From Sunxiuqinia sp. (lineage in GTDB: Bacteria; Bacteroidota; Bacteroidia; Bacteroidales; Prolixibacteraceae): 64,000 bases of DNA. Where the stretch lies: assembly GCA_037446835.1 (NCBI GenBank), contig JBBIHV010000004.1:832-64831 (forward strand). Reading direction: 5' to 3'. The notes below the pieces were generated by a model. That model had not been told where the DNA came from. It searched no databases and saw only the letters and a program-made list of their open reading frames with translations. This document shows positions 20,886 through 29,472 of the stretch, piece after piece. The stretch's first letter is position 1. Every line of letters starts with the position of its first letter. A program made the position numbers and the translations under genes.

Positions 20886-22622
20886 CTAAAAATCTTGTGC
20901 CAGTGGGAGCAAAAACCTGAAAACACTTCCTTTGGCAACCGTGCTTTCAACCCAAATTTCGCCACCATGCTTGATAACCATATCTTTACAAAGCAACAAT
21001 CCCAATCCAGTTCCTTTTTCGTTGGCCGTTCCGGGTTTCGATTTTAGATTGGTAATATCAAATAGTTTTGCAATTTCGTCTGGCGACATCCCAACTCCCG
21101 AATCTGAAACAGAGACAATTACCTTTGTATCTTCTTTTTCGATTTTAATTTGAACCGATCCTCCCGGATTTGTAAACTTTATGCCGTTTACCAGAAGATT
21201 TCGTAAAATCGTCTTCAGCATAAGTTCATCGGCAAAAACCAACACCGGTTCAGAATCCTGAAAAGAAACCGAAATATTTTTCTTATCGGCAACCAGCACG
21301 TGATCATTAACCAGGCTTTGGCACAATTCGTTTAGATTAATATTTTCGGGCCTGAATGGAAATTGGTCGGATTGGACCCGTGCCCAAATTAACAATTCAT
21401 CGAGCAAATTATAAGAAACCTTGGCCGAATTATAGATGCGGTCCACATACATTTGTAATTCATCGCTCCGCAATTCTGTCAGGTTTTCAGCCAGCAATTC
21501 GGAAAAACCAAGTAATGCGTTGAACGGACTTTTCAGGTCGTGGGCAAGAAGCGACACGAAACGATCTTTATTCTTGTTTACCTTTTCTAATTCTTCGTTC
21601 AATTTTTGAATTTGCATGGTTTTAGTTCGCGCATTTATCAGGCCAACAACCAAAATAAAAAGTAAAACGCTGATAATTAAACCATTTGCAAGCACAATTA
21701 AAATCCTCGCTGGCAGAAAGTAACCTTGGGTGTTATATCCCGAAAATTCGAGTGTCCAAACATGACCGTTAAAATTCGTGGGGATTTTCAGGTTTTGAAT
21801 TGAGCGTGAAGAACGACGGACCTGAAAAACCGAATCACTGTCAAACATCAGGTTATCAGCAATCAACGCTTGCCTGTCGTACACTTTTATCCGGAGTTTT
21901 TTATAATCCCATTCTCCCAGCACACTTTTCATTAATTCGTTCATCCGGTAAGTAGTGAAAACCCAGCCGATGATCGCTTTTTTACGCGACGCGGAGTCAG
22001 CAGGGGTCGGGCCACTTTTAAAAACAGGGGCAAAAACGATCATGCCCGACGGGTCGGCTTTTCCCGATTCCTGAATGATCGAAATTTTATCGGTAATTGT
22101 GGCCAGATCCGTGTTGCGCGATTGTTCCATGGCAAAGCGCCACCTGGGTTCGGTGTAACCATCAAATCCCAACGGCTGCAAAATGTGTTTTGTATCGGGT
22201 TCAATATAAATAACTGCTGTGTAAAAATCCCGGTCTCCTTCAGGAACGATTTTGAAATGAGGAAAGCCTCCGTTTCGGATTTGTTTTTCAAGGTGATTTA
22301 TATTCATTTTATCAACAATAACCGAATAGCCAATGCCCCTGATACCCGGTAACTCAATGTGCAACCTGTTCAAAGACTGGAATTCATGCCATTCTTTGTG
22401 CGAAATGGAATCCGAACTCGACACAAAAGCAGCGCTGCTATATAAAATCTGGGCATTGGCTGTTAACCGTTTCTGTATTTTGCCTTCAAACGACAAGCAT
22501 AGTTTTTCAAAACCCTGCCCATCCAATTTTTTTTGATCCTGAAAAGCAGAGTAAGAAATTACAAAAGTTACTGCCAAACCAAGTAGTAAAATTAGTATCG
22601 GAAATAATCGAATTTTTAACAT
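20886..22622 (-). CDS. CHASE-domain sensor histidine kinase (orphan)
   Basis: Two TMs flanking a CHASE domain (LGFDGYTEP); H-box LAHDLKSP; N-box RNLLVNGIKF; DSGVG; GTGLGL. Confidence 0.92.
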   Translation of the reverse strand: MLKIRLFPILILLLGLAVTFVISYSAFQDQKKLDGQGFEKLCLSFEGKIQKRLTANAQILYSSAAFVSSSDSISHKEWHEFQSLNRLHIELPGIRGIGYSVIVDKMNINHLEKQIRNGGFPHFKIVPEGDRDFYTAVIYIEPDTKHILQPLGFDGYTEPRWRFAMEQSRNTDLATITDKISIIQESGKADPSGMIVFAPVFKSGPTPADSASRKKAIIGWVFTTYRMNELMKSVLGEWDYKKLRIKVYDRQALIADNLMFDSDSVFQVRRSSRSIQNLKIPTNFNGHVWTLEFSGYNTQGYFLPARILIVLANGLIISVLLFILVVGLINARTKTMQIQKLNEELEKVNKNKDRFVSLLAHDLKSPFNALLGFSELLAENLTELRSDELQMYVDRIYNSAKVSYNLLDELLIWARVQSDQFPFRPENINLNELCQSLVNDHVLVADKKNISVSFQDSEPVLVFADELMLKTILRNLLVNGIKFTNPGGSVQIKIEKEDTKVIVSVSDSGVGMSPDEIAKLFDITNLKSKPGTANEKGTGLGLLLCKDMVIKHGGEIWVESTVAKGSVFRFLLPLAQDF

Positions 22623-22981
22623 GATCCCCTTTTCTTATCTAAATTTAAGGAATTTCATTCAGAAAAACAACTAAATTTCTCCGAAACAACTTAGCCCGAA
22701 ACGCCTCAGGTTCCCATTTTCAGGAAAAGTAAATTCCTACATAAATGCTGAAAACGCCACATTTATCCTACCTAAACGTAGGCTTTTAAAAAGCTGAAAA
22801 AAATTAAACTACTCAGGATAAATCACTTCTGAAAATTGGTACGACACTTGACCCGGTGTTTTCAAACTTTATACCCATTCAATTGGCTTTACCGGAAAAC
22901 CAGTTGGCGATGAATTAAAAATATACTCCGGAATTAAACGAAAAGATCAGGAATACAAGTCATTAACTAATATTTTCAAAA

Positions 22982-23224
22982 ATGAAACTCAGTGCACGGA
23001 ACCAACTGAAAGGCAAAATCCTGAAAGTGGATGAAGGTTTGATTACTTCAAAAGTGATGCTCGACCTTGGAAACGGGAACATTATTTCGGCCATTATCTC
23101 CAAAGATGCCATTGCCGATTTAGACCTGAAACCGGGCGACACGGCCTTTGCCATCATCAAATCGACCGAAGTGATCATCGGGACTCCCTGCGATTGTAAC
23201 GACGGAAAATGTAATTGCCATTAG
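22982..23224 (+). CDS. Mop/molbindin-type single TOBE protein with Cys-rich tail
   Basis: MKLSARNQLKG, SAIIS, AIIKST molybdate-binding signature; tail PCDCNDGKCNCH. Confidence 0.9.
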   Translation: MKLSARNQLKGKILKVDEGLITSKVMLDLGNGNIISAIISKDAIADLDLKPGDTAFAIIKSTEVIIGTPCDCNDGKCNCH

Positions 23225-23226
23225 CC

Positions 23227-23559
23227 ATGATCGAAGTGGAATGCCATCTCTCAATAAAAAAAGACGGGACCTGTTTTTTAGGCCCTGTGAAGACCGAACT
23301 TCTGAATGAAATCAGCAGAAGCGGCAGTTTGAACAGCGCTGCCAGGAACCTGAAAATTTCGTACCAACATGCCTGGACAATGATTGACGAGATGAACCGT
23401 GTTGCCCCTGAACCGCTGGTCATCAAACAGCGGGGAGGCGCAAATGGCGGGGGCGCTGAAATTTCGGGTTATGGCAAGAAAATCCTTCAGGAATACCGGA
23501 TAATCCAGGCACAGGTGAATAAAGTTGTCGATCAGATCAACGTTGAAATCAACCTGTGA
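23227..23559 (+). CDS. modE: ModE-type winged-helix DNA-binding domain without TOBE domains
   Basis: LGPVKTELLNEISRSGSLNSAARNLKISYQHAW...RGGANGGGAEI; ATG 23227, 2 nt after the TOBE gene stop. Confidence 0.85.
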   Translation: MIEVECHLSIKKDGTCFLGPVKTELLNEISRSGSLNSAARNLKISYQHAWTMIDEMNRVAPEPLVIKQRGGANGGGAEISGYGKKILQEYRIIQAQVNKVVDQINVEINL

Positions 23560-23571
23560 TTTTTTTTGAAT

Positions 23572-23599
23572 ACCGTTATCTAATTTTGTTTATATCGAA
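23572..23599 (+). promoter_or_regulatory. ModE-type operator overlapping a Bacteroidota sigma-A -7 element
   Basis: ACCGTTATCTA-N6-TTTATATCGAA matches 16 of 20 defined positions of ATCGnTATATA-N6-TATATAnCGAT; TAATTTTG (TANNTTTG) at 23581-23588. Confidence 0.75.
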
Positions 23600-23612
23600 A
23601 ATTTATATTCGG

Positions 23613-24104
23613 ATGAAAACAACAATAAGTTACCAACCAATCGGCATCATCCGGACACCGTTTGTATCCGTTTCGGAAATGCCGATTCAACCCAGCGGGG
23701 CAAATGGCGCAAAAGGGATTATTGAACTAAACCCGGATTTGACGCTGGGGCTTTTCGATCTGGAAGGCTTTTCACACCTCATTTTAATTTACCATTTGCA
23801 TTTGGTTTCAGGATACAAACTTTCGGTTGTCCCATTTATGGACGATCGGCCACACGGCATTTTTGCCACCCGCGCTCCTGCCCGGCCCAACCCGATCGGG
23901 ATCTCGATTGTTGAACTCAAAAAAATTGAAACCAATTTGCTTTACATCGAAGGGGTTGACATGCTGAACGGTACGCCGTTGCTCGACATCAAACCGTTCT
24001 TTACCAAATTCGACAACCGGCCAGTGGCCAAGGCTGGTTGGCTTGAAGGAAAACACCACGCAGATATTATGAAAATAAAATCGGACGACAGGTTCGGCCA
24101 ATAA
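23613..24104 (+). CDS. TrmO/TsaA-like SAM-binding protein, single N-terminal domain (163 aa)
   Basis: PIGIIRTPF, GIFATRAPARPNPIG, DMLNGTPLLDIKP; ATG 23613 preferred. Confidence 0.88.
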   Translation: MKTTISYQPIGIIRTPFVSVSEMPIQPSGANGAKGIIELNPDLTLGLFDLEGFSHLILIYHLHLVSGYKLSVVPFMDDRPHGIFATRAPARPNPIGISIVELKKIETNLLYIEGVDMLNGTPLLDIKPFFTKFDNRPVAKAGWLEGKHHADIMKIKSDDRFGQ

Positions 24105-24194
24105 AAAAAGTCCGGAACCCAATCGCTGCAAATGATTTAGATATTCCGGACAATTAAAATTCATCAAAAATTTTAACGCTTAAAAGTACAAAAA

Positions 24195-25496
24195 ATGAGA
24201 AAGGTTTACGTATTGGCAATCACTGGATTGCTTTTTTTGCTCAGCTTTTCGGAAAGCTACGGGCAAGTTTCGATTGATGCCGAGTTTCGGCCACGTTCAG
24301 AGTTCAGGTCAGGATTTAACCAGCCATTGCCTGATACACTAAAATCAGCATTGGTGACGATGCAACGTACCCGCCTGAATTTCAACTACAAAAGCGGTGT
24401 TTTAAATGCACGTTTAGTTTTACAGGATGCCCGTGTATTTGGCGAAACCGACACCAAACAACCGGCAACGGCAACAACCGGAAGTATTGGCATTTACGAA
24501 GCATGGACCGAATTATTGTTGTTTTCGGGTATCCGTTTAAAAATTGGCCGACAGGGTGTCCAATTTGAAGATGGCCGTTTGTTCAGTCTTTCGCCCTGGA
24601 GCAACACCGGGAACTCGCACGACCTGGCCCAGTTGGGGTATTCAGCACCGGGGCTGGAGGTTCAGTTCGGGTACGCCTACAACAATCAGAAAGCGCTGAA
24701 TGCCGACACCTTGTATTACAGTGTCAGCAAAATGTATAAACAACTGGCCTTTTTGCACCTGACAAAAACAATCGCCACCGGTCTCGACCTGAGTTTGCTT
24801 GGCGTGGACGAAGGGTTTGAGAAAAGTAAAACCAACCAGGATTTGTATCACCGATACACGACTGGTGGAACTTTGCAGCTAAAGAACGACAAGTTGCCAC
24901 TTGGCTTTTTTGCAACCGGCTATTATCAATTCGGGAAAAGTACTCAAACTGTTGACCTGGAGGCCTGGCTGCTGGCCTTAAAAGCTACCTGCACGTTTAC
25001 CGATAAAATCGGGGGCCTCGCCGGAGTTGATTATTATTCAGGTTCCGGAAGTACTTTGGCTTCAACTAAAACCAACACATTCAATAAGTTGCCTTATGGG
25101 GTGAACCATTCGTTCAACGGGTACATGGAATATTGGGGAACTTTGCCCAAGGGCGGTTTGGTCAATTACTATGGCGGTGTTAGCCTGAAGCTGAGCAAAA
25201 AACTAAATTCCGACATTACTTACTATGCCTTCAGCCTGGCCGAGAACATGAAAATTGGCACCAGACCGGTGCAGAAAAATATTGGTTCGGAATTGGATCT
25301 CGCGCTGAATTACAAGTTCTCGCCCGAAACAGCCATTCAATTTGCCTGGTGCGGCTATTTTGCCAACGCCGGAACCAACATGCTAAAATATAAGACGGCA
25401 ACGGTTGACACCAGGTTTCCGCAATTTGCTTACGTGATGCTCACCATCAAACCACAACTATACAAAACTCCGGCGCCGCTGGAATCAAAAAAATAA
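24195..25496 (+). CDS. Alginate export family outer membrane porin
   Basis: Signal peptide; EFRPRSEFR, QRTRLNF, QDARVFG, IYEAW, KIGRQ, NHSFNGYMEY, GSELDL. Confidence 0.8.
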   Translation: MRKVYVLAITGLLFLLSFSESYGQVSIDAEFRPRSEFRSGFNQPLPDTLKSALVTMQRTRLNFNYKSGVLNARLVLQDARVFGETDTKQPATATTGSIGIYEAWTELLLFSGIRLKIGRQGVQFEDGRLFSLSPWSNTGNSHDLAQLGYSAPGLEVQFGYAYNNQKALNADTLYYSVSKMYKQLAFLHLTKTIATGLDLSLLGVDEGFEKSKTNQDLYHRYTTGGTLQLKNDKLPLGFFATGYYQFGKSTQTVDLEAWLLALKATCTFTDKIGGLAGVDYYSGSGSTLASTKTNTFNKLPYGVNHSFNGYMEYWGTLPKGGLVNYYGGVSLKLSKKLNSDITYYAFSLAENMKIGTRPVQKNIGSELDLALNYKFSPETAIQFAWCGYFANAGTNMLKYKTATVDTRFPQFAYVMLTIKPQLYKTPAPLESKK

Positions 25497-25519
25497 TTCT
25501 TCAAAAAAAAGGAAAGGAA

Positions 25520-26263
25520 ATGAAAATGAAAAAAGTTAACATATTCTTGCTATTGATCTTGTTTTGTACAAGTCTGCAAGCTCAAACAGTAAAGGTTGCG
25601 GCAGCGGCAAATCTCCGGTTTGTTTTCGATGAAATTAAAAACAGTTATACCCAAGCCAATCCGAAAGCCGACATCACGGCGAATTTTGGTTCGTCCGGGG
25701 CGCTCCTTCAGCAAATCCTGAACGGCGCCGAATTCGATATTTTTATGGCTGCCGACAATACTTTTCCTGCAAAGTTGAAAGATCAGGGTGCAGCTTCGGG
25801 CGAAATAAAGACGTATGCGCTGGGAAAACTCGTTTTGTGGAGCAATGTGGCCAATGTTTCCGATGGGCTGGATGTGCTGACCAGGCCTGAGGTAAAACGC
25901 ATTTCAATTGCCAAACCCGATTTGGCGCCTTATGGCGACCGGGCTGTTGAATGCCTGAAAGCTGCCGGGTTGTACGACAAAGTGAAGGACAAAATCATTT
26001 ATGCCGACAACATTTCGCAAGCCGCCCAGTTTGCACAAACCGGCAATGCCGAGGTCGCATTTTTGGCCATGTCGTTAACCTTGACCCCCGACATGAAAGG
26101 CTCTGTTTACGTGATCAATCCCAAATCGTATAAGCCGGTTGAACAGGCAATGGTACTGGTTAAAAGCTGGAGAACCAATCCCGAAGCAGCTAAATTCATG
26201 AAATTTATCTTGAGCGATAGCTGCAAACCAATTTTCGAGAAATTCGGTTATATCGTTCCTTGA
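25520..26263 (+). CDS. modA: Molybdate ABC transporter substrate-binding protein
   Basis: AAAANL, FGSSG, DIFMAA, LAPYG, ADNISQA. Confidence 0.95.
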   Translation: MKMKKVNIFLLLILFCTSLQAQTVKVAAAANLRFVFDEIKNSYTQANPKADITANFGSSGALLQQILNGAEFDIFMAADNTFPAKLKDQGAASGEIKTYALGKLVLWSNVANVSDGLDVLTRPEVKRISIAKPDLAPYGDRAVECLKAAGLYDKVKDKIIYADNISQAAQFAQTGNAEVAFLAMSLTLTPDMKGSVYVINPKSYKPVEQAMVLVKSWRTNPEAAKFMKFILSDSCKPIFEKFGYIVP

Positions 26264-26342
26264 AGCCAGGGAAAAAGGAAAAGGGAAAATCTGAACATTT
26301 CTAACAACCAATGACTTTTTCCTGTTCGTAAAAAGCGCAACC

Positions 26343-26744
26343 ATGAATAAATTACCAGGTACGATCACTCAAATTCAGCAATCAGGGGCTATTCTTTTAG
26401 TCGATGTGGATGTGGATGGGCACGGTTTTTCAGCCTTGCTCATCGAATCGGCAATTCGCCCCGAATGGCTGAAGCAAGGGAATTTGGCCGACCTTGTTTT
26501 TAAGGAAACCGAAGTTTCACTGGCCAAAAATCTTTCAGGAACAATCAGTATGCGAAACCGGATGAAATGTACTGTCCTGCATATCGAACGCGGTGAACTT
26601 TTAAGCAAAATCAGCCTGAAGTTTCAGGAATACATGGTGGCATCGGCAGTTACAACCCGCGCCGTCGAGGCACTTCAGCTTAAAATTGGCGACGAAGTGG
26701 AAGCGCTGGTGAAAGCCAATGAGGTTTCGTTAATGAGAAAATAA
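26343..26744 (+). CDS. Tandem TOBE domain protein
   Basis: Two TOBE repeats ending VFKETEV and LVKANEV; SMRNR. Confidence 0.85.
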   Translation: MNKLPGTITQIQQSGAILLVDVDVDGHGFSALLIESAIRPEWLKQGNLADLVFKETEVSLAKNLSGTISMRNRMKCTVLHIERGELLSKISLKFQEYMVASAVTTRAVEALQLKIGDEVEALVKANEVSLMRK

Positions 26745-26747
26745 TAA

Positions 26748-26794
26748 ATTTGAAAATGTGTCGATTTGAAAATGAATCCTGCACATTTTCAAAT
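26748..26794. repeat. Intercistronic hairpin inside the mod operon
   Basis: ATTTGAAAATGTG (26748-26760) / CACATTTTCAAAT (26782-26794), perfect 13 bp inverted repeat; extra ATTTGAAAATG copy at 26764. Confidence 0.7.
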
Positions 26795-26819
26795 CTCCAA
26801 AACTTCAAATTAAAAAAAT

Positions 26820-27500
26820 ATGGATGCAACATTCGCTCAAACCATTTGGCTCACCATCAAACTGGCTGTTTCAACAACGGTCATTTTAGTTGTCATCGGC
26901 TTGCCTTTCTCGTATTGGCTGGCGTACACCAAGGTTAAAATTAAACCGCTGGTTGAAGCGCTGGTGAGTATGCCGATGGTTTTGCCACCTTCAGTAATAG
27001 GTTATTACATGCTGTTAATTTACAGTCCGCGCAACGGATTTGGCGAGTGGCTTGGCCGTGTTTTCGATGTTCGGCTGGCATTTTCGTTCGAAGGCGTGCT
27101 TATTGCATCCGTTATTTTCAGCCTGCCATTCATGGTCCAGCCGCTGCATAACGGGTTGCGCTCATTGCCTGAAAGTTTGCGCGAAGCCTCGTACACGCTC
27201 GGAAAATCGAGGATGCAGACTTTTTTCAGGGTGTTGCTGCCGAACATTAAACCATCGGTCATAACAGCTATTGCACTTACTTTTGCGCACAGCATTGGCG
27301 AATTCGGGATAGTGCTGATGGTTGGCGGGAACATGCCCGGCGAAACCCGCGTGGCTTCAATTGCTATTTACGACGAAGTTCAGGCACTCAATTTCGAAGC
27401 AGCCAACCGTTATGCACTGATTTTATTTCTGGTTTCGCTACTGTTGCTGACAACCATTTACAGTGTGAATAAAAAGTACGACTCATGGAAAATGATGTAA
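26820..27500 (+). CDS. modB: Molybdate ABC transporter permease
   Basis: MPMVLPPSVIGY, SLPFMVQP, EASYTLG, HSIGEFG, GETRVASIAIY. Confidence 0.96.
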   Translation: MDATFAQTIWLTIKLAVSTTVILVVIGLPFSYWLAYTKVKIKPLVEALVSMPMVLPPSVIGYYMLLIYSPRNGFGEWLGRVFDVRLAFSFEGVLIASVIFSLPFMVQPLHNGLRSLPESLREASYTLGKSRMQTFFRVLLPNIKPSVITAIALTFAHSIGEFGIVLMVGGNMPGETRVASIAIYDEVQALNFEAANRYALILFLVSLLLLTTIYSVNKKYDSWKMM

Positions 27501-28372
27501 TCCGGATCGAGGTTGAAAAGATGATGCACACGGCAAATGGCCCGATGAACCTTTCGGTCAGTACCAGTATTCAGAAAGGCGAACTGGTTTCACTTTTCGG
27601 GCAATCCGGAACAGGAAAAACAACACTTTTGCGAATCTTGTCCGGACTTATTCCTCCGGATAAAGGGTTGGTCAGGTTTGGAAAGACAGTTTGGTACGAT
27701 TCGGAAAAAAAGATCAACATCGCCCCTCAAAACCGAAATATCAGTTTTATGTTTCAGGATTACGCCCTGTTCCCGAATATGACGGTGGAACAAAATATCA
27801 GGTTTGCCCAGCCACAGCGCAACGATGGTGCCCTGAAAGAATTGCTTGGCATTTTCGGGCTGAACGAATTCCGCAAACGGAAGCCCAACGGATTATCGGG
27901 CGGACAAAAACAGCGGGTGGCCCTGGCCCGCGCCCTGGCCCGGAAACCGCAATTGCTGCTGCTCGACGAACCGCTCTCGGCGCTTGATGCCGAAATGCGA
28001 AACACACTTCAGGACGAAATCGCACAGGCCCATCACATGTCGGGGGTAACTACCCTTTTGGTCAGTCACGATTTGAATGAAGTTTTTCGGCTGGCAGACC
28101 ATGTCCTCTGTATCGAAAACGGCACGATAACCCGCAGCGGAAAACCGGATGAGGTCTTTTCGGACAGCAGTATCAGCGGGAAAGTGCAGATTACCGGTCA
28201 AATAGCGCGTATCGACCAACAGGGCATCATGAACATTGTGACAGTCATTTCAGGAAACAACCAGATTATCAGGGTTATTGCATTCGACAACGACCTGGAG
28301 AACCTGAAAATTGGCGACAGTGTTATGGTTTTTTCAAAGGCTTTCAACCCGATTATCAGCAAATTAAAGTGA
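27485..28372 (+). CDS. modC: Molybdate ABC transporter ATPase with C-terminal TOBE
   Basis: Walker A GQSGTGKTT, LSGGQKQR, LLLLDEP, SHD; ends FSKAFNP. Confidence 0.92.
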   Translation: MENDVIRIEVEKMMHTANGPMNLSVSTSIQKGELVSLFGQSGTGKTTLLRILSGLIPPDKGLVRFGKTVWYDSEKKINIAPQNRNISFMFQDYALFPNMTVEQNIRFAQPQRNDGALKELLGIFGLNEFRKRKPNGLSGGQKQRVALARALARKPQLLLLDEPLSALDAEMRNTLQDEIAQAHHMSGVTTLLVSHDLNEVFRLADHVLCIENGTITRSGKPDEVFSDSSISGKVQITGQIARIDQQGIMNIVTVISGNNQIIRVIAFDNDLENLKIGDSVMVFSKAFNPIISKLK

Positions 28373-28395
28373 ATATACAAACTTGCCAAAATGAA

Positions 28396-28432
28396 GAATC
28401 GCCTTTAAAACCAATGGTCCTAAAGGCGATTC
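28396..28432. terminator. Hairpin between convergent modC and YncE genes
   Basis: GAATCGCCTTTA / TAAAGGCGATTC, perfect 12 bp stem. Confidence 0.7.
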
Positions 28433-28455
28433 CCAATTTGGGCGTAAACTCCGGG

Positions 28456-29472
28456 TTATTTCACCGGCTCAATATCCAGCACTTTGAAGGAATTTGGTTT
28501 TACCGGACGCCTTCCGGTGCCTTCTCCAAATTCGCCTCCTGAAACATAAATATGATGAGTCGTTTTATCAACCGTGATGGTCCGTGCACCTGGTTGAGTG
28601 GCGATACTTTCCAAAGCTTTATATTTATTGGCACTTTCTTGCTGAATGACAGAAATGATCCCTTCGCCGCAAGATGCAAAAATGCGTTTGGTTGCCGGAT
28701 CAAAAGCCACGCCATCGCAGCCTTTTCCAATCGGGGCCGAGGCAATTACTTTTCCTGAAACGGGATCAGAAACAACCATCAATTTGTTGCTGCATACCGA
28801 AAACAAGCGGTTGTTTGCCACATCGTATGCCAATCCTGAAGGTTCTTCGCCAGGGGCAATCGACCAAGTTTTTTCAACTTTCAGCGTAGCCGAATTGATG
28901 ATGGCCAGGCTGCTTTTATCCTCGATGTTTACAAAAACTTTGCCTTTGTCATCGGTTTGTGCGAATTCGGGTTTTCCGGCCAGCGGAATGGTTGCAACGA
29001 TTTTGTCGGTTGTAGCGTCAATCACGGTTGAATTGCTGGTCCTTCCATTAAACGTAAATACTTTCTTCGAGAACGGGTCATACAAAATGGCATCCGGGTT
29101 TTTGCCGGTACCCTGAACTCTCCCAATAACTTTAAAATTCTTCAAATCGACCACCAAAACCGACGAATCCCTTCCGCAGGAAATAAATGCCTTGTTCAAG
29201 TCGTTGGCAACGGCTATACCATGCACACCACTGGTTTCAGGAATTACAGCAATTTCTGCCGACGTTTTAAGGTTAACAACATTTACCTGCGAACTGTGCG
29301 AAACAAACAGATTTTGGTTTGCCTCGTCAACCGACAAATAATCCCAGCCGCCATCACCGGTCAACTGGATGGTTTTGGCAACTTTGTATTCCGGCTTCTG
29401 TGCCTGAACATTTTGAAACATCATGCAAACCATGACGATCATGATTGCTGAAAACAAGGTTTGTTTTTTCAT
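28456..29472 (-). CDS. YncE/YVTN-type beta-propeller protein, exported
   Basis: Signal peptide; GDGGWDY, GVHGIA, GKNPDAI, GKPEF, GARTI. Confidence 0.85.
   Translation of the reverse strand: MKKQTLFSAIMIVMVCMMFQNVQAQKPEYKVAKTIQLTGDGGWDYLSVDEANQNLFVSHSSQVNVVNLKTSAEIAVIPETSGVHGIAVANDLNKAFISCGRDSSVLVVDLKNFKVIGRVQGTGKNPDAILYDPFSKKVFTFNGRTSNSTVIDATTDKIVATIPLAGKPEFAQTDDKGKVFVNIEDKSSLAIINSATLKVEKTWSIAPGEEPSGLAYDVANNRLFSVCSNKLMVVSDPVSGKVIASAPIGKGCDGVAFDPATKRIFASCGEGIISVIQQESANKYKALESIATQPGARTITVDKTTHHIYVSGGEFGEGTGRRPVKPNSFKVLDIEPVK

What the first reader, a model, noticed from the sequence alone, without database searches (positions are those of the whole stretch)
22982..28372. ModE-controlled molybdate operon led by a TrmO-like SAM-binding protein and a porin: candidate extended Mo/W uptake system
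Seen: gene order mop-TOBE, modE(HTH only), trmO-like, porin, modA, TOBE2, modB, modC, all on + with short gaps. A 28 bp site ACCGTTATCTA-N6-TTTATATCGAA (23572-23599) sits 13 nt before the trmO-like ATG and contains TAATTTTG. Established: the ModE operator consensus is about ATCGnTATATA-N6-TATATAnCGAT (16 of 20 positions match here), and TANNTTTG is the Bacteroidota housekeeping -7 promoter element, so the geometry fits repression by operator occlusion. Inference: the transcript starts at the trmO-like gene, which puts two genes with no accepted role in molybdate transport at the head of the Mo regulon. No molybdoenzyme is in the window, so the client (nitrogenase, nitrate or formate enzymes) is unknown.
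Basis: partly seen in the sequence, partly recalled or inferred. Interest (0 to 1): 0.75.

Follow-up and report, generated by a model that had tools for sequence, protein, structure and literature searches.

The report
Molybdate uptake operon with two extras
A molybdenum-uptake gene cluster in a nitrogen-fixing sediment bacterium holds, behind a conserved binding site for the molybdenum regulator, an outer-membrane pore and a small SAM-binding protein annotated as a tRNA enzyme; the same pairing recurs in other bacteria, so both may be unrecognised helpers of molybdenum supply.

Summary

The box alone is only marginally above chance: 3 sites of at least 16/20 in the genome against about 0.9 expected. 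Its palindrome CGTTATCT-N8/9-ATAWCG is nevertheless kept at the same place in all 7 orthologous loci, while spacer and flanks drift.

The whole module (mop, modE-HTH, trmO-like, AlgE-like porin, modA, TOBE, modB, modC) is conserved in at least 7 Prolixibacteraceae/Bacteroidales genomes with different flanks.

The unknown client is probably nitrogenase. The module abuts nif genes in four relatives. The window's genome has nifAHDKENBV on another contig, and no MoaC or molybdopterin oxidoreductase was found.

Single-domain TrmO-like genes also sit in mod operons of Chloroflexota, with a different regulator and gene order. I found no paper on this link.

Not supported: the TAnnTTTG -7 element is present in only 2 of 7 loci. 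Untested: co-transcription and response to Mo, because no RNA data exist.

Verdict: a real, conserved, nif-associated variant of the ModE/ModABC system with two uncharacterised accessory genes.

The parts
22982..23224 (+). mop: single-TOBE molbindin (80 aa) with a Cys-rich tail PCDCNDGKCNCH; probable Mo-sensing partner of the HTH-only ModE
   Evidence: PF03459 E 8e-15 and TIGR00638 77.1 bits. The tail motif is kept in all 7 Bacteroidota modules and is absent from the Chloroflexota Mops.
23227..23559 (+). modE, N-terminal winged-HTH domain only (110 aa), 2 nt after mop
   Evidence: TIGR00637 ModE_repress E 6e-25 (87 bits, below the 98.5 cut-off). It aligns to residues 3-102 of full-length ModE, NF007957. 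It contains no TOBE domain: only two TOBE genes exist in the genome, mop and the 133-aa protein.
23560..23568 (+). T8G run directly after the modE stop; either the -33 TTTG element of a Bacteroidota-type promoter or the U-tract of a weak modE terminator
   Evidence: Kept in 7/7 loci at 4-5 nt from the box. A preceding stem exists in the window (-15.6 kcal/mol, z -1.8) and weakly in L049, but not in L002 or L048.
23572..23599 (.). ModE-type operator, core palindrome CGTTATCTA-N6-TTTATATCG (23574-23597), 13 nt before the trmO-like ATG
   Evidence: 16/20 to ATCGNTATATA-N6-TATATANCGAT. The strict pattern is unique in the genome. It is conserved in 7/7 loci and is the only site shared by all of them. 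The consensus is as cited in PMC545781.
23613..24104 (+). trmO-like: single-domain UPF0066/TrmO_N SAM-binding beta-barrel protein (163 aa) with a conserved C-terminal [KR][SA]DxRF tail and no TrmO C-terminal domain
   Evidence: PF01980 E 9e-38, TIGR00104 124 bits. The best PDB match is AF_0241, 2nv4. It is the only TrmO_N gene in the genome. Alignment, tree.
24110..24151 (+). conserved intercistronic hairpin between trmO-like and porin
   Evidence: RNAalifold on 5 loci: 13 pairs, 4 with compensatory changes. Single-sequence fold -12.7 kcal/mol, z -3.0. No U-tract follows.
24195..25496 (+). outer-membrane beta-barrel of the alginate-export (AlgE) family with signal peptide; candidate molybdate/oxyanion channel
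   Evidence: PF13372 E 3e-12. AF2 model pLDDT 69, pTM 0.70, about 18-19 strands. Best PDB folds are AlgE, TM about 0.6, E 3e-18. Invariant R34, R58, R60, R80, R119 and R128. A homologue lies directly upstream of modA in G217 as well.
25520..26263 (+). modA, periplasmic molybdate-binding protein
   Evidence: TIGR01256 200.8 bits (cut-off 62.5).
26343..26744 (+). 133-aa TOBE/Mop protein between modA and modB (cytoplasmic molybdate binding or regulation)
   Evidence: PF03459 E 5e-16 and TIGR00638. The same modA-TOBE-modB-modC order occurs in 10 of 20 other Bacteroidota loci.
26747..26811 (+). stable hairpin (12-bp perfect inverted repeat) in the TOBE-modB spacer
   Evidence: -18.1 kcal/mol, z -6.2. 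Weak palindromic Rfam hits on both strands.
26820..27500 (+). modB permease
   Evidence: TIGR02141 226.6 bits (cut-off 182.6).
27485..28372 (+). modC ATPase (295 aa, short C-terminal part), overlaps modB by 16 nt
   Evidence: PF00005 E 7e-35. TIGR02142 203 bits, aligned only to positions 6-227 of 353.
28385..28443 (.). strong hairpin after modC, between convergent genes; probable end of the operon
   Evidence: -27.2 kcal/mol, z -5.5.

Best explanation
This is a molybdenum-starvation operon that supplies Mo to nitrogenase in a Prolixibacteraceae-like diazotroph.

Regulation. A split sensor is encoded just upstream: a Mop molbindin with a Cys-rich tail plus an HTH-only ModE. When molybdate is sufficient, the Mop/ModE pair binds the palindrome CGTTATCTA-N6-TTTATATCG. 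This palindrome fills most of the 44 nt between a conserved T8G run and the trmO-like start codon. Binding blocks transcription, either by promoter occlusion or as a roadblock.

When Mo is scarce, six genes are expressed as one unit:
- a cytoplasmic single-domain TrmO-like SAM-binding protein;
- an AlgE-type, arginine-rich outer-membrane barrel that lets molybdate through the outer membrane;
- ModA;
- a cytoplasmic TOBE protein;
- ModB and ModC.

The TrmO-like protein is most likely not a passenger. I read it as a Mo-linked accessory factor acting on something other than tRNA(Thr), possibly a partner of the Mop/TOBE proteins in handing molybdate on.

What is shown and what is inferred.
- Shown: gene identities, conservation of the module and of the operator, linkage to nif, and recurrence of the TrmO-like/mod linkage in a second phylum.
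- Inferred: repression, co-transcription, molybdate selectivity of the porin, and any activity of the TrmO-like protein.
- I give about 0.85 for a ModE-controlled nif-serving mod operon, about 0.6 for the porin as the Mo entry route, and about 0.5 for the TrmO-like protein having a Mo-linked, non-tRNA role.
For: - Domains.
- Operator: at the stated place, unique under the strict pattern, conserved in 7/7 loci while spacer and flanks vary, and the only site common to all loci.
- Module: conserved at 60-76% TrmO-like identity with unrelated flanks.
- nif linkage: nif genes abut the module in L049, L050 and a JGI contig, and lie 8 kb from it in L048's genome.
- Own genome: nifA-H-D-K-E-N-B-V on C11; no PF00384 and no MoaC found at 95% completeness.
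- Porin: AlgE fold, six invariant Arg. An Alginate_exp gene also sits directly before modA in an unrelated Bacteroidota genome.
- TrmO-like in Chloroflexota: next to mop/modA/modB in four arrangements, L004, L052, L058 and L062. That is 3 of the 10 closest GTDB homologues.
- Tree: Mo-linked copies cluster (5 label changes against 10.2 for shuffles, 0 of 500 as low) but sit in at least two well-separated, supported places.
- TrmO function: E. coli TrmO needs a C-terminal DPRxxY domain that this protein lacks, and archaeal-type single-domain homologues are suspected not to make m6t6A (PMC4132733).
- HTH-only ModE beside separate Mop proteins is a known arrangement with unclear mechanism (PMC545781).
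Against: - No transcript data exist, only DNA runs, so co-transcription, the start site and Mo response are untested.
- The 16/20 consensus score is close to chance genome-wide.
- The TAnnTTTG motif is not conserved, and I could not place a convincing -7 box.
- A conserved hairpin between trmO-like and porin could be a terminator or processing site that uncouples the two.
- The TrmO-like protein passes NCBIfam's TrmO equivalog cut-off (124 against 93 bits). It keeps the SAM-binding motifs and a conserved DxRF tail, and it is the only TrmO_N gene in the genome. A tRNA role therefore cannot be excluded.
- Most homologues elsewhere are not next to mod genes: none of 20 loci from other Bacteroidota lineages, nor WOR-3 or Anaeroferrophillacea.
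- Nothing shows the porin's selectivity.
- No ModE box was found at nif.
Confidence: 0.62

Rival explanations
1. The TrmO-like gene is an ordinary tRNA m6t6A37 methyltransferase, or another housekeeping RNA/protein methyltransferase. It merely rides in the mod/nif island and has no part in molybdenum handling.
For: - It passes the NCBIfam TrmO equivalog threshold.
- It is the only TrmO_N gene in the genome.
- SAM-binding motifs are intact, and the conserved C-terminal DxRF tail might stand in for DPRxxY.
- Most homologues in other lineages have no Mo neighbours.
Against: - The gene keeps its position behind the ModE box in 7/7 modules with changing flanks.
- An independent linkage to mop/modA/modB exists in Chloroflexota, with a different regulator and gene order.
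- The TrmO_C domain needed in E. coli is absent.
- Among the same-order and same-class genomes of the 401-genome sample, only 5 had a match, all weak (E 1e-11 to 1e-18). The gene is therefore not housekeeping in this class.
Confidence: 0.25
2. The barrel protein is not a molybdate route. It is a general or other-substrate channel (sulfate, phosphate, organic acids, polysaccharide export) that only happens to be encoded here.
For: - The family is defined by the alginate exporter AlgE.
- No selectivity data exist.
- Of the 10 genes lying directly upstream of modA (taken from 20 other Bacteroidota modA loci), only one is an Alginate_exp porin, one has no Pfam match and eight are unrelated.
Against: - It is always 20-40 nt before modA in the core modules. 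In L048 a TauE anion permease lies between them.
- There are no alginate or polysaccharide genes nearby.
- The invariant arginines fit a small-anion conduit.
- An independent porin-modA pair exists in G217.
- An earlier scan report found a ModE-regulated porin beside modA in another genome (unverified lead).
Confidence: 0.2
3. The palindrome is not a working ModE operator for a promoter at trmO-like. All eight genes are one transcript from a promoter upstream of mop. The conserved spacer then serves something else, for example translation or RNA stability, or ModE acts here only as an autoregulatory roadblock.
For: - The consensus score is near chance.
- There is no recognisable -7 box.
- The spacer is only 53 nt.
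- No conserved motif or box lies upstream of mop.
Against: - The half-sites CGTTAT/ATAWCG are the positions kept, while the spacer between them varies. That is the pattern expected of a dimeric HTH site.
- The same CGTTAT...ATAACG boxes lie upstream of modA in other members of the phylum.
- The conserved T8G fits a -33 TTTG or a terminator tail, and either would separate the two units.
- Even as a roadblock, the site would make the downstream genes Mo-repressed.
Confidence: 0.13

Closest known systems
E. coli ModE-modABC (molybdate-bound ModE represses modABC at an operator overlapping the promoter)
   Same: - ModE-type winged-HTH.
- Operator of the CGnTATATA-N6-TATATAnCG type just upstream of the first regulated gene.
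- ModA, ModB and ModC orthologues.
   Different: - The regulator is split: an HTH-only protein plus a separate 80-aa Mop with a Cys-rich tail, encoded in reversed order.
- Two extra genes (TrmO-like, porin) precede modA, and a TOBE gene lies between modA and modB.
- ModC lacks the full C-terminal TOBE part.
- The promoter is presumably of the Bacteroidota type.
nif-associated molybdate systems with molbindins (Rhodobacter capsulatus mopA-modABCD/mopB; Azotobacter vinelandii modEABC, modG)
   Same: - Mo transport genes are linked to nitrogen fixation and accompanied by small Mop/TOBE proteins.
- modABC next to nif in Bacteroidales was noted by Inoue et al. 2015 (PMC4356463).
   Different: - No TrmO-like protein or outer-membrane channel has been described in those systems (from my own knowledge; the literature searches found none).
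- ModD is absent here, although a ModD-like QRPTase gene lies upstream in L047.
Starvation-induced anion porins PhoE (E. coli) and OprP/OprO (Pseudomonas), co-regulated with the Pst phosphate ABC transporter
   Same: - The logic is the same: an outer-membrane anion channel under the regulator that also controls the high-affinity ABC importer for that oxyanion.
   Different: - The family and fold differ: a monomeric AlgE-type barrel rather than a trimeric 16-strand porin.
- The substrate is inferred to be molybdate.
- No biochemical data exist.
AlgE, alginate export barrel of Pseudomonas aeruginosa (PF13372)
   Same: - Pfam family and predicted fold (TM about 0.6).
- Arginine-rich barrel.
   Different: - Only 13-17% identity.
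- No alginate or polysaccharide genes nearby.
- Encoded inside a mod operon.
TrmO/YaeB of E. coli (m6t6A37 methyltransferase) and the single-domain homologue AF_0241 (PDB 2nv4)
   Same: - N-terminal UPF0066 beta-barrel with the SAM-binding motifs.
- Closest solved structure is the SAM-bound AF_0241.
   Different: - No C-terminal domain with the DPRxxY motif, only a 25-aa tail with [KR][SA]DxRF.
- Encoded behind a ModE box in a mod/nif island.
- Substrate unknown.

Membership tests
ModE regulator | N-terminal ModE-type winged helix-turn-helix domain | tested here: met
   TIGR00637 E 6e-25 (87.2 bits, under the 98.5 cut-off). Aligns to residues 3-102 of NF007957 ModE.
ModE regulator | C-terminal tandem Mop/TOBE molybdate-binding domains in the same chain | tested here: not met
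   110 aa with no TOBE hit. A separate 80-aa Mop is encoded 2 nt upstream. HTH-only ModE genes are known from Desulfovibrio (PMC545781).
ModE regulator | Inverted-repeat operator of the type CGnTATATA-N6-TATATAnCG at a regulated promoter | tested here: met
   16/20 match, unique under the strict pattern, conserved in 7/7 orthologous loci.
ModE regulator | Molybdate-dependent DNA binding and repression | not testable with these tools
   No RNA runs. Needs EMSA and expression assays.
ModABC transporter | ModA, ModB and ModC equivalogs in one cluster | tested here: met
   modA 200.8 bits against 62.5; modB 226.6 against 182.6. modC scores 203 against 285, below the cut-off because its C-terminal TOBE part is short.
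TrmO (tRNA m6t6A37 methyltransferase) | UPF0066/TrmO_N beta-barrel with AdoMet-binding residues | tested here: met
   PF01980 E 9e-38 and TIGR00104 124.1 bits against 93.25. The PIQP, RPNPIG and DxxxGTPLLDIKP motifs are conserved.
TrmO (tRNA m6t6A37 methyltransferase) | C-terminal domain with the DPRxxY motif, required for activity in E. coli (PMC4132733) | tested here: not met
   No TrmO_C hit. The protein ends 25 aa after the barrel with ...KSDDRFGQ. This conserved [KR][SA]DxRF tail is not the DPRxxY domain.
TrmO (tRNA m6t6A37 methyltransferase) | Methylation of t6A37 in tRNA-Thr(GGU) | not testable with these tools
   Needs tRNA mass spectrometry or an enzyme assay.
Alginate export (AlgE) family | PF13372 sequence match and an 18-strand monomeric barrel | tested here: met
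   46.6 bits against 25.2. AF2 model and Foldseek: AlgE entries rank 1-17, TM 0.60-0.63.
Alginate export (AlgE) family | Encoded with alginate or polysaccharide biosynthesis genes and exports the polymer | tested here: not met
   The neighbours are mod genes in all 7 loci, with no alg genes.
Phosphate-type anion porins (OprP/PhoE) | Sequence membership in Porin_O_P or general porin families | tested here: not met
   No such Pfam hit. Only the regulatory logic is alike.

The most novel reading that the evidence does not exclude
The single-domain ('archaeal-type') branch of the UPF0066/TrmO family is not a tRNA methyltransferase. It would be a SAM-binding factor of molybdenum trafficking, working with Mop/TOBE proteins to process or deliver imported molybdate, here for FeMo-cofactor synthesis. 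This would explain three things:
- its recurrent placement in mod operons of Bacteroidota and Chloroflexota;
- its reported fusion to FmdE domains;
- its occurrence in orange-protein-type Mo/S clusters.

Together with a dedicated AlgE-type outer-membrane molybdate channel, it would give a complete route for Mo from the outside of the cell to nitrogenase in anaerobic Bacteroidota.
Probability: 0.3. Interest if true: 0.8.

Novelty: new variant of a known kind. Interest (0 to 1): 0.6.

Why it matters
How molybdate crosses the outer membrane is largely unknown. So is how it is handed from ModABC to FeMo-cofactor assembly in anaerobic diazotrophs that lack NifQ-type donors.

This module offers two concrete, testable candidates under one Mo-responsive operator:
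- a dedicated outer-membrane anion channel;
- a SAM-binding protein of a family whose single-domain members have had no assigned function since 2014.

It also shows that pipelines name these genes 'TrmO' and 'alginate export protein'. Both names are probably misleading in this context.

Bacteroidota of the Prolixibacteraceae type are common sediment and subsurface diazotrophs, so their Mo supply matters for nitrogen budgets where Mo is scarce, as in sulfidic settings.

Tried and rejected
- The search for related loci with the single protein returned only 4 loci. Synteny had to come from the search for homologous proteins plus look-up of encoding contigs.
- A general TrmO-modA link within the phylum: 81 of 401 Bacteroidota genomes have a TrmO homologue and 124 have modA, but none are adjacent outside the window's clade. 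The link is clade-specific there.
- Contexts of the close homologues L003 (WOR-3) and L005-L008 show no Mo genes.
- A wider ModE regulon: the only convincing box in the genome is this one. The other two sites of at least 16/20 (C155:2825, C23:24422) lack the right-hand CG half and fit chance. No box lies at the nif cluster or upstream of mop.
- TAnnTTTG as the -7 box: rejected as conserved evidence (2 of 7 loci).
- Moco riboswitch or any other Rfam family in 22400-28600: none.
- RNA-seq support: only three DNA runs of a subsurface metagenome.
- Literature linking TrmO/TsaA/YaeB/UPF0066/COG1720 or alginate-export porins to molybdate: nothing relevant. The one exception is a note that FmdE domains occur fused to UPF0066 (PMC2954224).
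- A sequence-profile search of the porin against PDB found nothing. Only the fold search did.
- The porin homologue search reached only the same clade, at least 63% identity, so it said nothing about distant porin-modA pairs.

Full report
**1. Observation**

ORF calling and Pfam/NCBIfam scans confirm the eight genes and their order on the + strand:
- mop 22982-23224, a single TOBE domain;
- modE 23227-23559, N-terminal HTH domain only;
- a 163-aa TrmO_N-only protein 23613-24104;
- an Alginate_exp-family outer-membrane barrel 24195-25496;
- modA 25520-26263;
- a 133-aa TOBE protein 26343-26744;
- modB 26820-27500;
- modC 27485-28372.

The gaps are 2, 53, 90, 23, 79, 75 and -16 nt. The sequence ACCGTTATCTA-ATTTTG-TTTATATCGAA lies at 23572-23599, 13 nt before the ATG at 23613.

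**2. Is the box more than chance?**

Against ATCGNTATATA-N6-TATATANCGAT it scores 16/20. That consensus is the one cited in PMC545781.

The 3.88-Mb genome holds three sites of at least 16/20. First-order Markov simulations gave 0.9 +/- 1.4. The score alone therefore proves little.

Position and conservation carry the argument:
- The site lies in the 53-nt spacer right after modE, where a chance site is expected with a probability of about 1e-5.
- The pattern CGTTATCT-N7-10-ATAWCG occurs only here in the genome.
- In seven orthologous loci the same palindrome sits in the same spacer. These are the window, L002 and L046-L050, with 60-76% TrmO-like identity.
- The half-sites are essentially invariant (one substitution in L046). 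The 6-nt spacer, the flanks and even the total length (23 or 24 nt) vary.
- It is the only such site common to all loci.
- Similar CGTTATAT...ATATAACGA boxes lie upstream of modA in other families of the phylum.

The two other genomic 16-17/20 sites lack the right-hand CG half and look like chance.

**3. Promoter geometry**

It is present in only 2 of 7 loci, so I do not accept it as evidence for a -7 element.

What is conserved in 7/7 loci is a T7-8G run immediately after the modE stop, 4-5 nt before the box. It could be a -33 TTTG. The -7 region would then fall on the right half-site, giving occlusion.

It could instead be the U-tract of a weak terminator of mop-modE. A stem precedes it in the window (-15.6 kcal/mol) and weakly in L049, but not in L002 or L048.

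Either reading separates mop-modE from the downstream unit. Either reading also puts the operator between any promoter and the trmO-like start codon.

No conserved element or box was found upstream of mop. No Rfam family, including the Moco riboswitch, matches the region.

**4. Synteny**

L002, a Prolixibacteraceae MAG, has the identical eight-gene order.

Five more contigs, found through homologues of the TrmO-like protein, carry the same module. One variation is seen: in L048 a TauE-family anion permease is inserted between porin and modA.

The flanks differ between loci:
- CHASE histidine kinase and UvrB in L046;
- a metal ABC/CobW cluster and a ModD-like gene in L047;
- OmpA in L048;
- nif genes in L049, L050 and the JGI contig.

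The module is therefore the conserved unit.

A conserved hairpin with four compensatory pairs occupies the trmO-like/porin spacer. Only 45 nt separate it from the porin ATG and it has no U-tract. I read it as an intercistronic RNA element rather than a terminator plus promoter, but this is inference.

Strong hairpins also lie between the TOBE gene and modB, and after modC. The one after modC probably ends the operon.

**5. The client**

In L049, L050 and a JGI contig the module directly abuts nifHDK, nifEN, nifB, the P-II genes, nifA and nifV. In L048's genome nifD lies 8 kb away, and L002's genome also has nifD.

The window's own genome carries nifA, H, D, K, E, N, B and V on contig C11 at 34.5-48.8 kb. 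No molybdopterin-oxidoreductase domain (PF00384) and no MoaC were found, at 95% completeness.

Nitrogenase FeMo-cofactor is therefore the likely, and perhaps only, use of Mo. Inoue et al. 2015 had noted modABC near nif in Bacteroidales, without the extra genes (PMC4356463).

**6. The porin**

The AF2 model is a barrel of about 18-19 strands behind a signal peptide (pLDDT 69, pTM 0.70). Its best PDB matches are AlgE entries, with E about 1e-17 and TM 0.60-0.63.

Six arginines are invariant across eight homologues down to 24% identity.

An Alginate_exp gene also sits immediately before modA-modB-modC in an unrelated Bacteroidota genome, G217, which has neither the TrmO-like neighbour nor nifD. 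An earlier report of this scan describes a ModE-regulated porin beside modA in yet another genome. I did not check that lead.

By analogy with PhoE and OprP (my own knowledge), a starvation-induced anion channel co-regulated with the ABC importer is the most economical reading. Selectivity is untested.

**7. The TrmO-like protein**

- It is the only TrmO_N gene in the genome.
- Among the same-order and same-class genomes of the 401-genome sample, only 5 had a match, all weak (E 1e-11 to 1e-18).
- Its closest solved relative is the SAM-bound single-domain AF_0241.
- The SAM-binding motifs are intact.
- The C-terminal domain with DPRxxY is absent. That domain is required for m6t6A formation in E. 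coli. Instead there is a conserved 25-aa tail ending in [KR][SA]DxRF.
- Kimura et al. already suspected that such single-domain homologues do not make m6t6A (PMC4132733).

The new point is context. Besides the 7 Bacteroidota modules, single-domain homologues sit in mod clusters of Chloroflexota in four different arrangements:
- modA <- merR-TOBE | mop -> trmO-like (L004);
- merR-TOBE-modA-modB-mop-trmO-like (L052);
- trmO-like-modA-modB (L062);
- modA <- | -> trmO-like (L058).

That is 3 of the 10 closest GTDB homologues in a 251-genome sample. L051 keeps a 23-residue mop remnant upstream.

In a 53-sequence tree the Mo-linked copies are clustered: 5 label changes against 10.2 for shuffles, with 0 of 500 shuffles as low. 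They still occupy at least two well-separated supported positions. The link is therefore old or recurrent.

Many homologues have no Mo neighbours. Examples are the f25 family of the phylum, WOR-3 and Anaeroferrophillacea.

Earlier notes of this scan report TsaA-like genes between modA and modB in other genomes, and in orange-protein clusters. These are unverified leads. PMC2954224 mentions FmdE-UPF0066 fusions.

I found no paper linking this family to molybdenum.

**8. Mechanism proposed**

1. Mop and ModE-HTH sense molybdate.
2. They repress a six-gene unit from the conserved box.
3. Under Mo limitation the cell makes the outer-membrane channel, ModA, ModBC, a cytoplasmic TOBE protein and the TrmO-like protein.

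What the TrmO-like protein does is unknown. My best guess is a SAM-dependent or SAM-sensing step on a non-tRNA partner in Mo handling. The passenger-tRNA-enzyme rival keeps about a quarter of the probability.

**9. Novelty**

The ModE/ModABC core is textbook. The conserved nif-linked variant is not described in the literature I could search. Its distinguishing features are a split sensor, an AlgE-type porin and a TrmO-like gene behind the operator.

I rate it a new variant of a known kind. Interest is moderate to high, because it yields two directly testable candidates for open steps of Mo supply.

Noticed in passing
window 23191-23224 (mop C-terminus); L002, L046-L050: The Mop protein ends in a Cys-rich tail PC[DE]C-x4-CxC[HNK]. 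The tail is kept in all 7 Bacteroidota modules (L047 has a variant) and is absent from the Chloroflexota Mops. It recalls the Cys motif of the Mo donor NifQ (from memory), so it might bind a metal or a Mo-S species.
   Followed up: partly
window 24110-24151: Conserved hairpin in the trmO-like/porin spacer: 13 pairs, 4 with compensatory changes in 5 loci. It has no U-tract and no Rfam match. It could be an RNA processing or stability element, or an attenuator.
   Followed up: partly
window 26747-26811 and 28385-28443: Two very stable hairpins (z -6.2 and -5.5). One is a 12-bp perfect inverted repeat between the TOBE gene and modB. The other lies after modC, between convergent genes.
   Followed up: partly
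genome contig C11:34563-48818: Complete nifA-nifH-(P-II)-nifD-nifK-nifE-nifN-nifB-nifV cluster on another contig. No MoaC and no PF00384 domain anywhere, so Moco enzymes seem absent and nitrogenase may be the only Mo user.
   Followed up: partly
L048:9124-9921: A TauE/SafE-family anion permease gene is inserted between porin and modA in one relative.
   Followed up: no
L047:1-6083: Upstream of the module in one relative lie a Peripla_BP_2/SBP/CobW/ABC metal-uptake cluster, a ModD-like QRPTase gene and an extra HTH_1 gene.
   Followed up: no
L051:3897-3965: A 23-residue remnant of mop (70% identical to the L052 Mop) lies directly upstream of a Chloroflexota TrmO-like gene that has otherwise lost its mod neighbours. 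This suggests decay of an ancestral mop-trmO pair.
   Followed up: no
window 27485-28372: ModC is only 295 aa. It matches the ModC model over positions 6-227 of 353 and has a short C-terminal part with no TOBE hit. The separate 133-aa TOBE protein may supply that regulatory domain in trans. The modA-TOBE-modB-modC order is common in the phylum (10 of 20 loci).
   Followed up: partly
L004:7467-9048: In the Chloroflexia genome the mop-trmO-like pair is followed by a B12-binding mutase subunit and MeaB.
   Followed up: no
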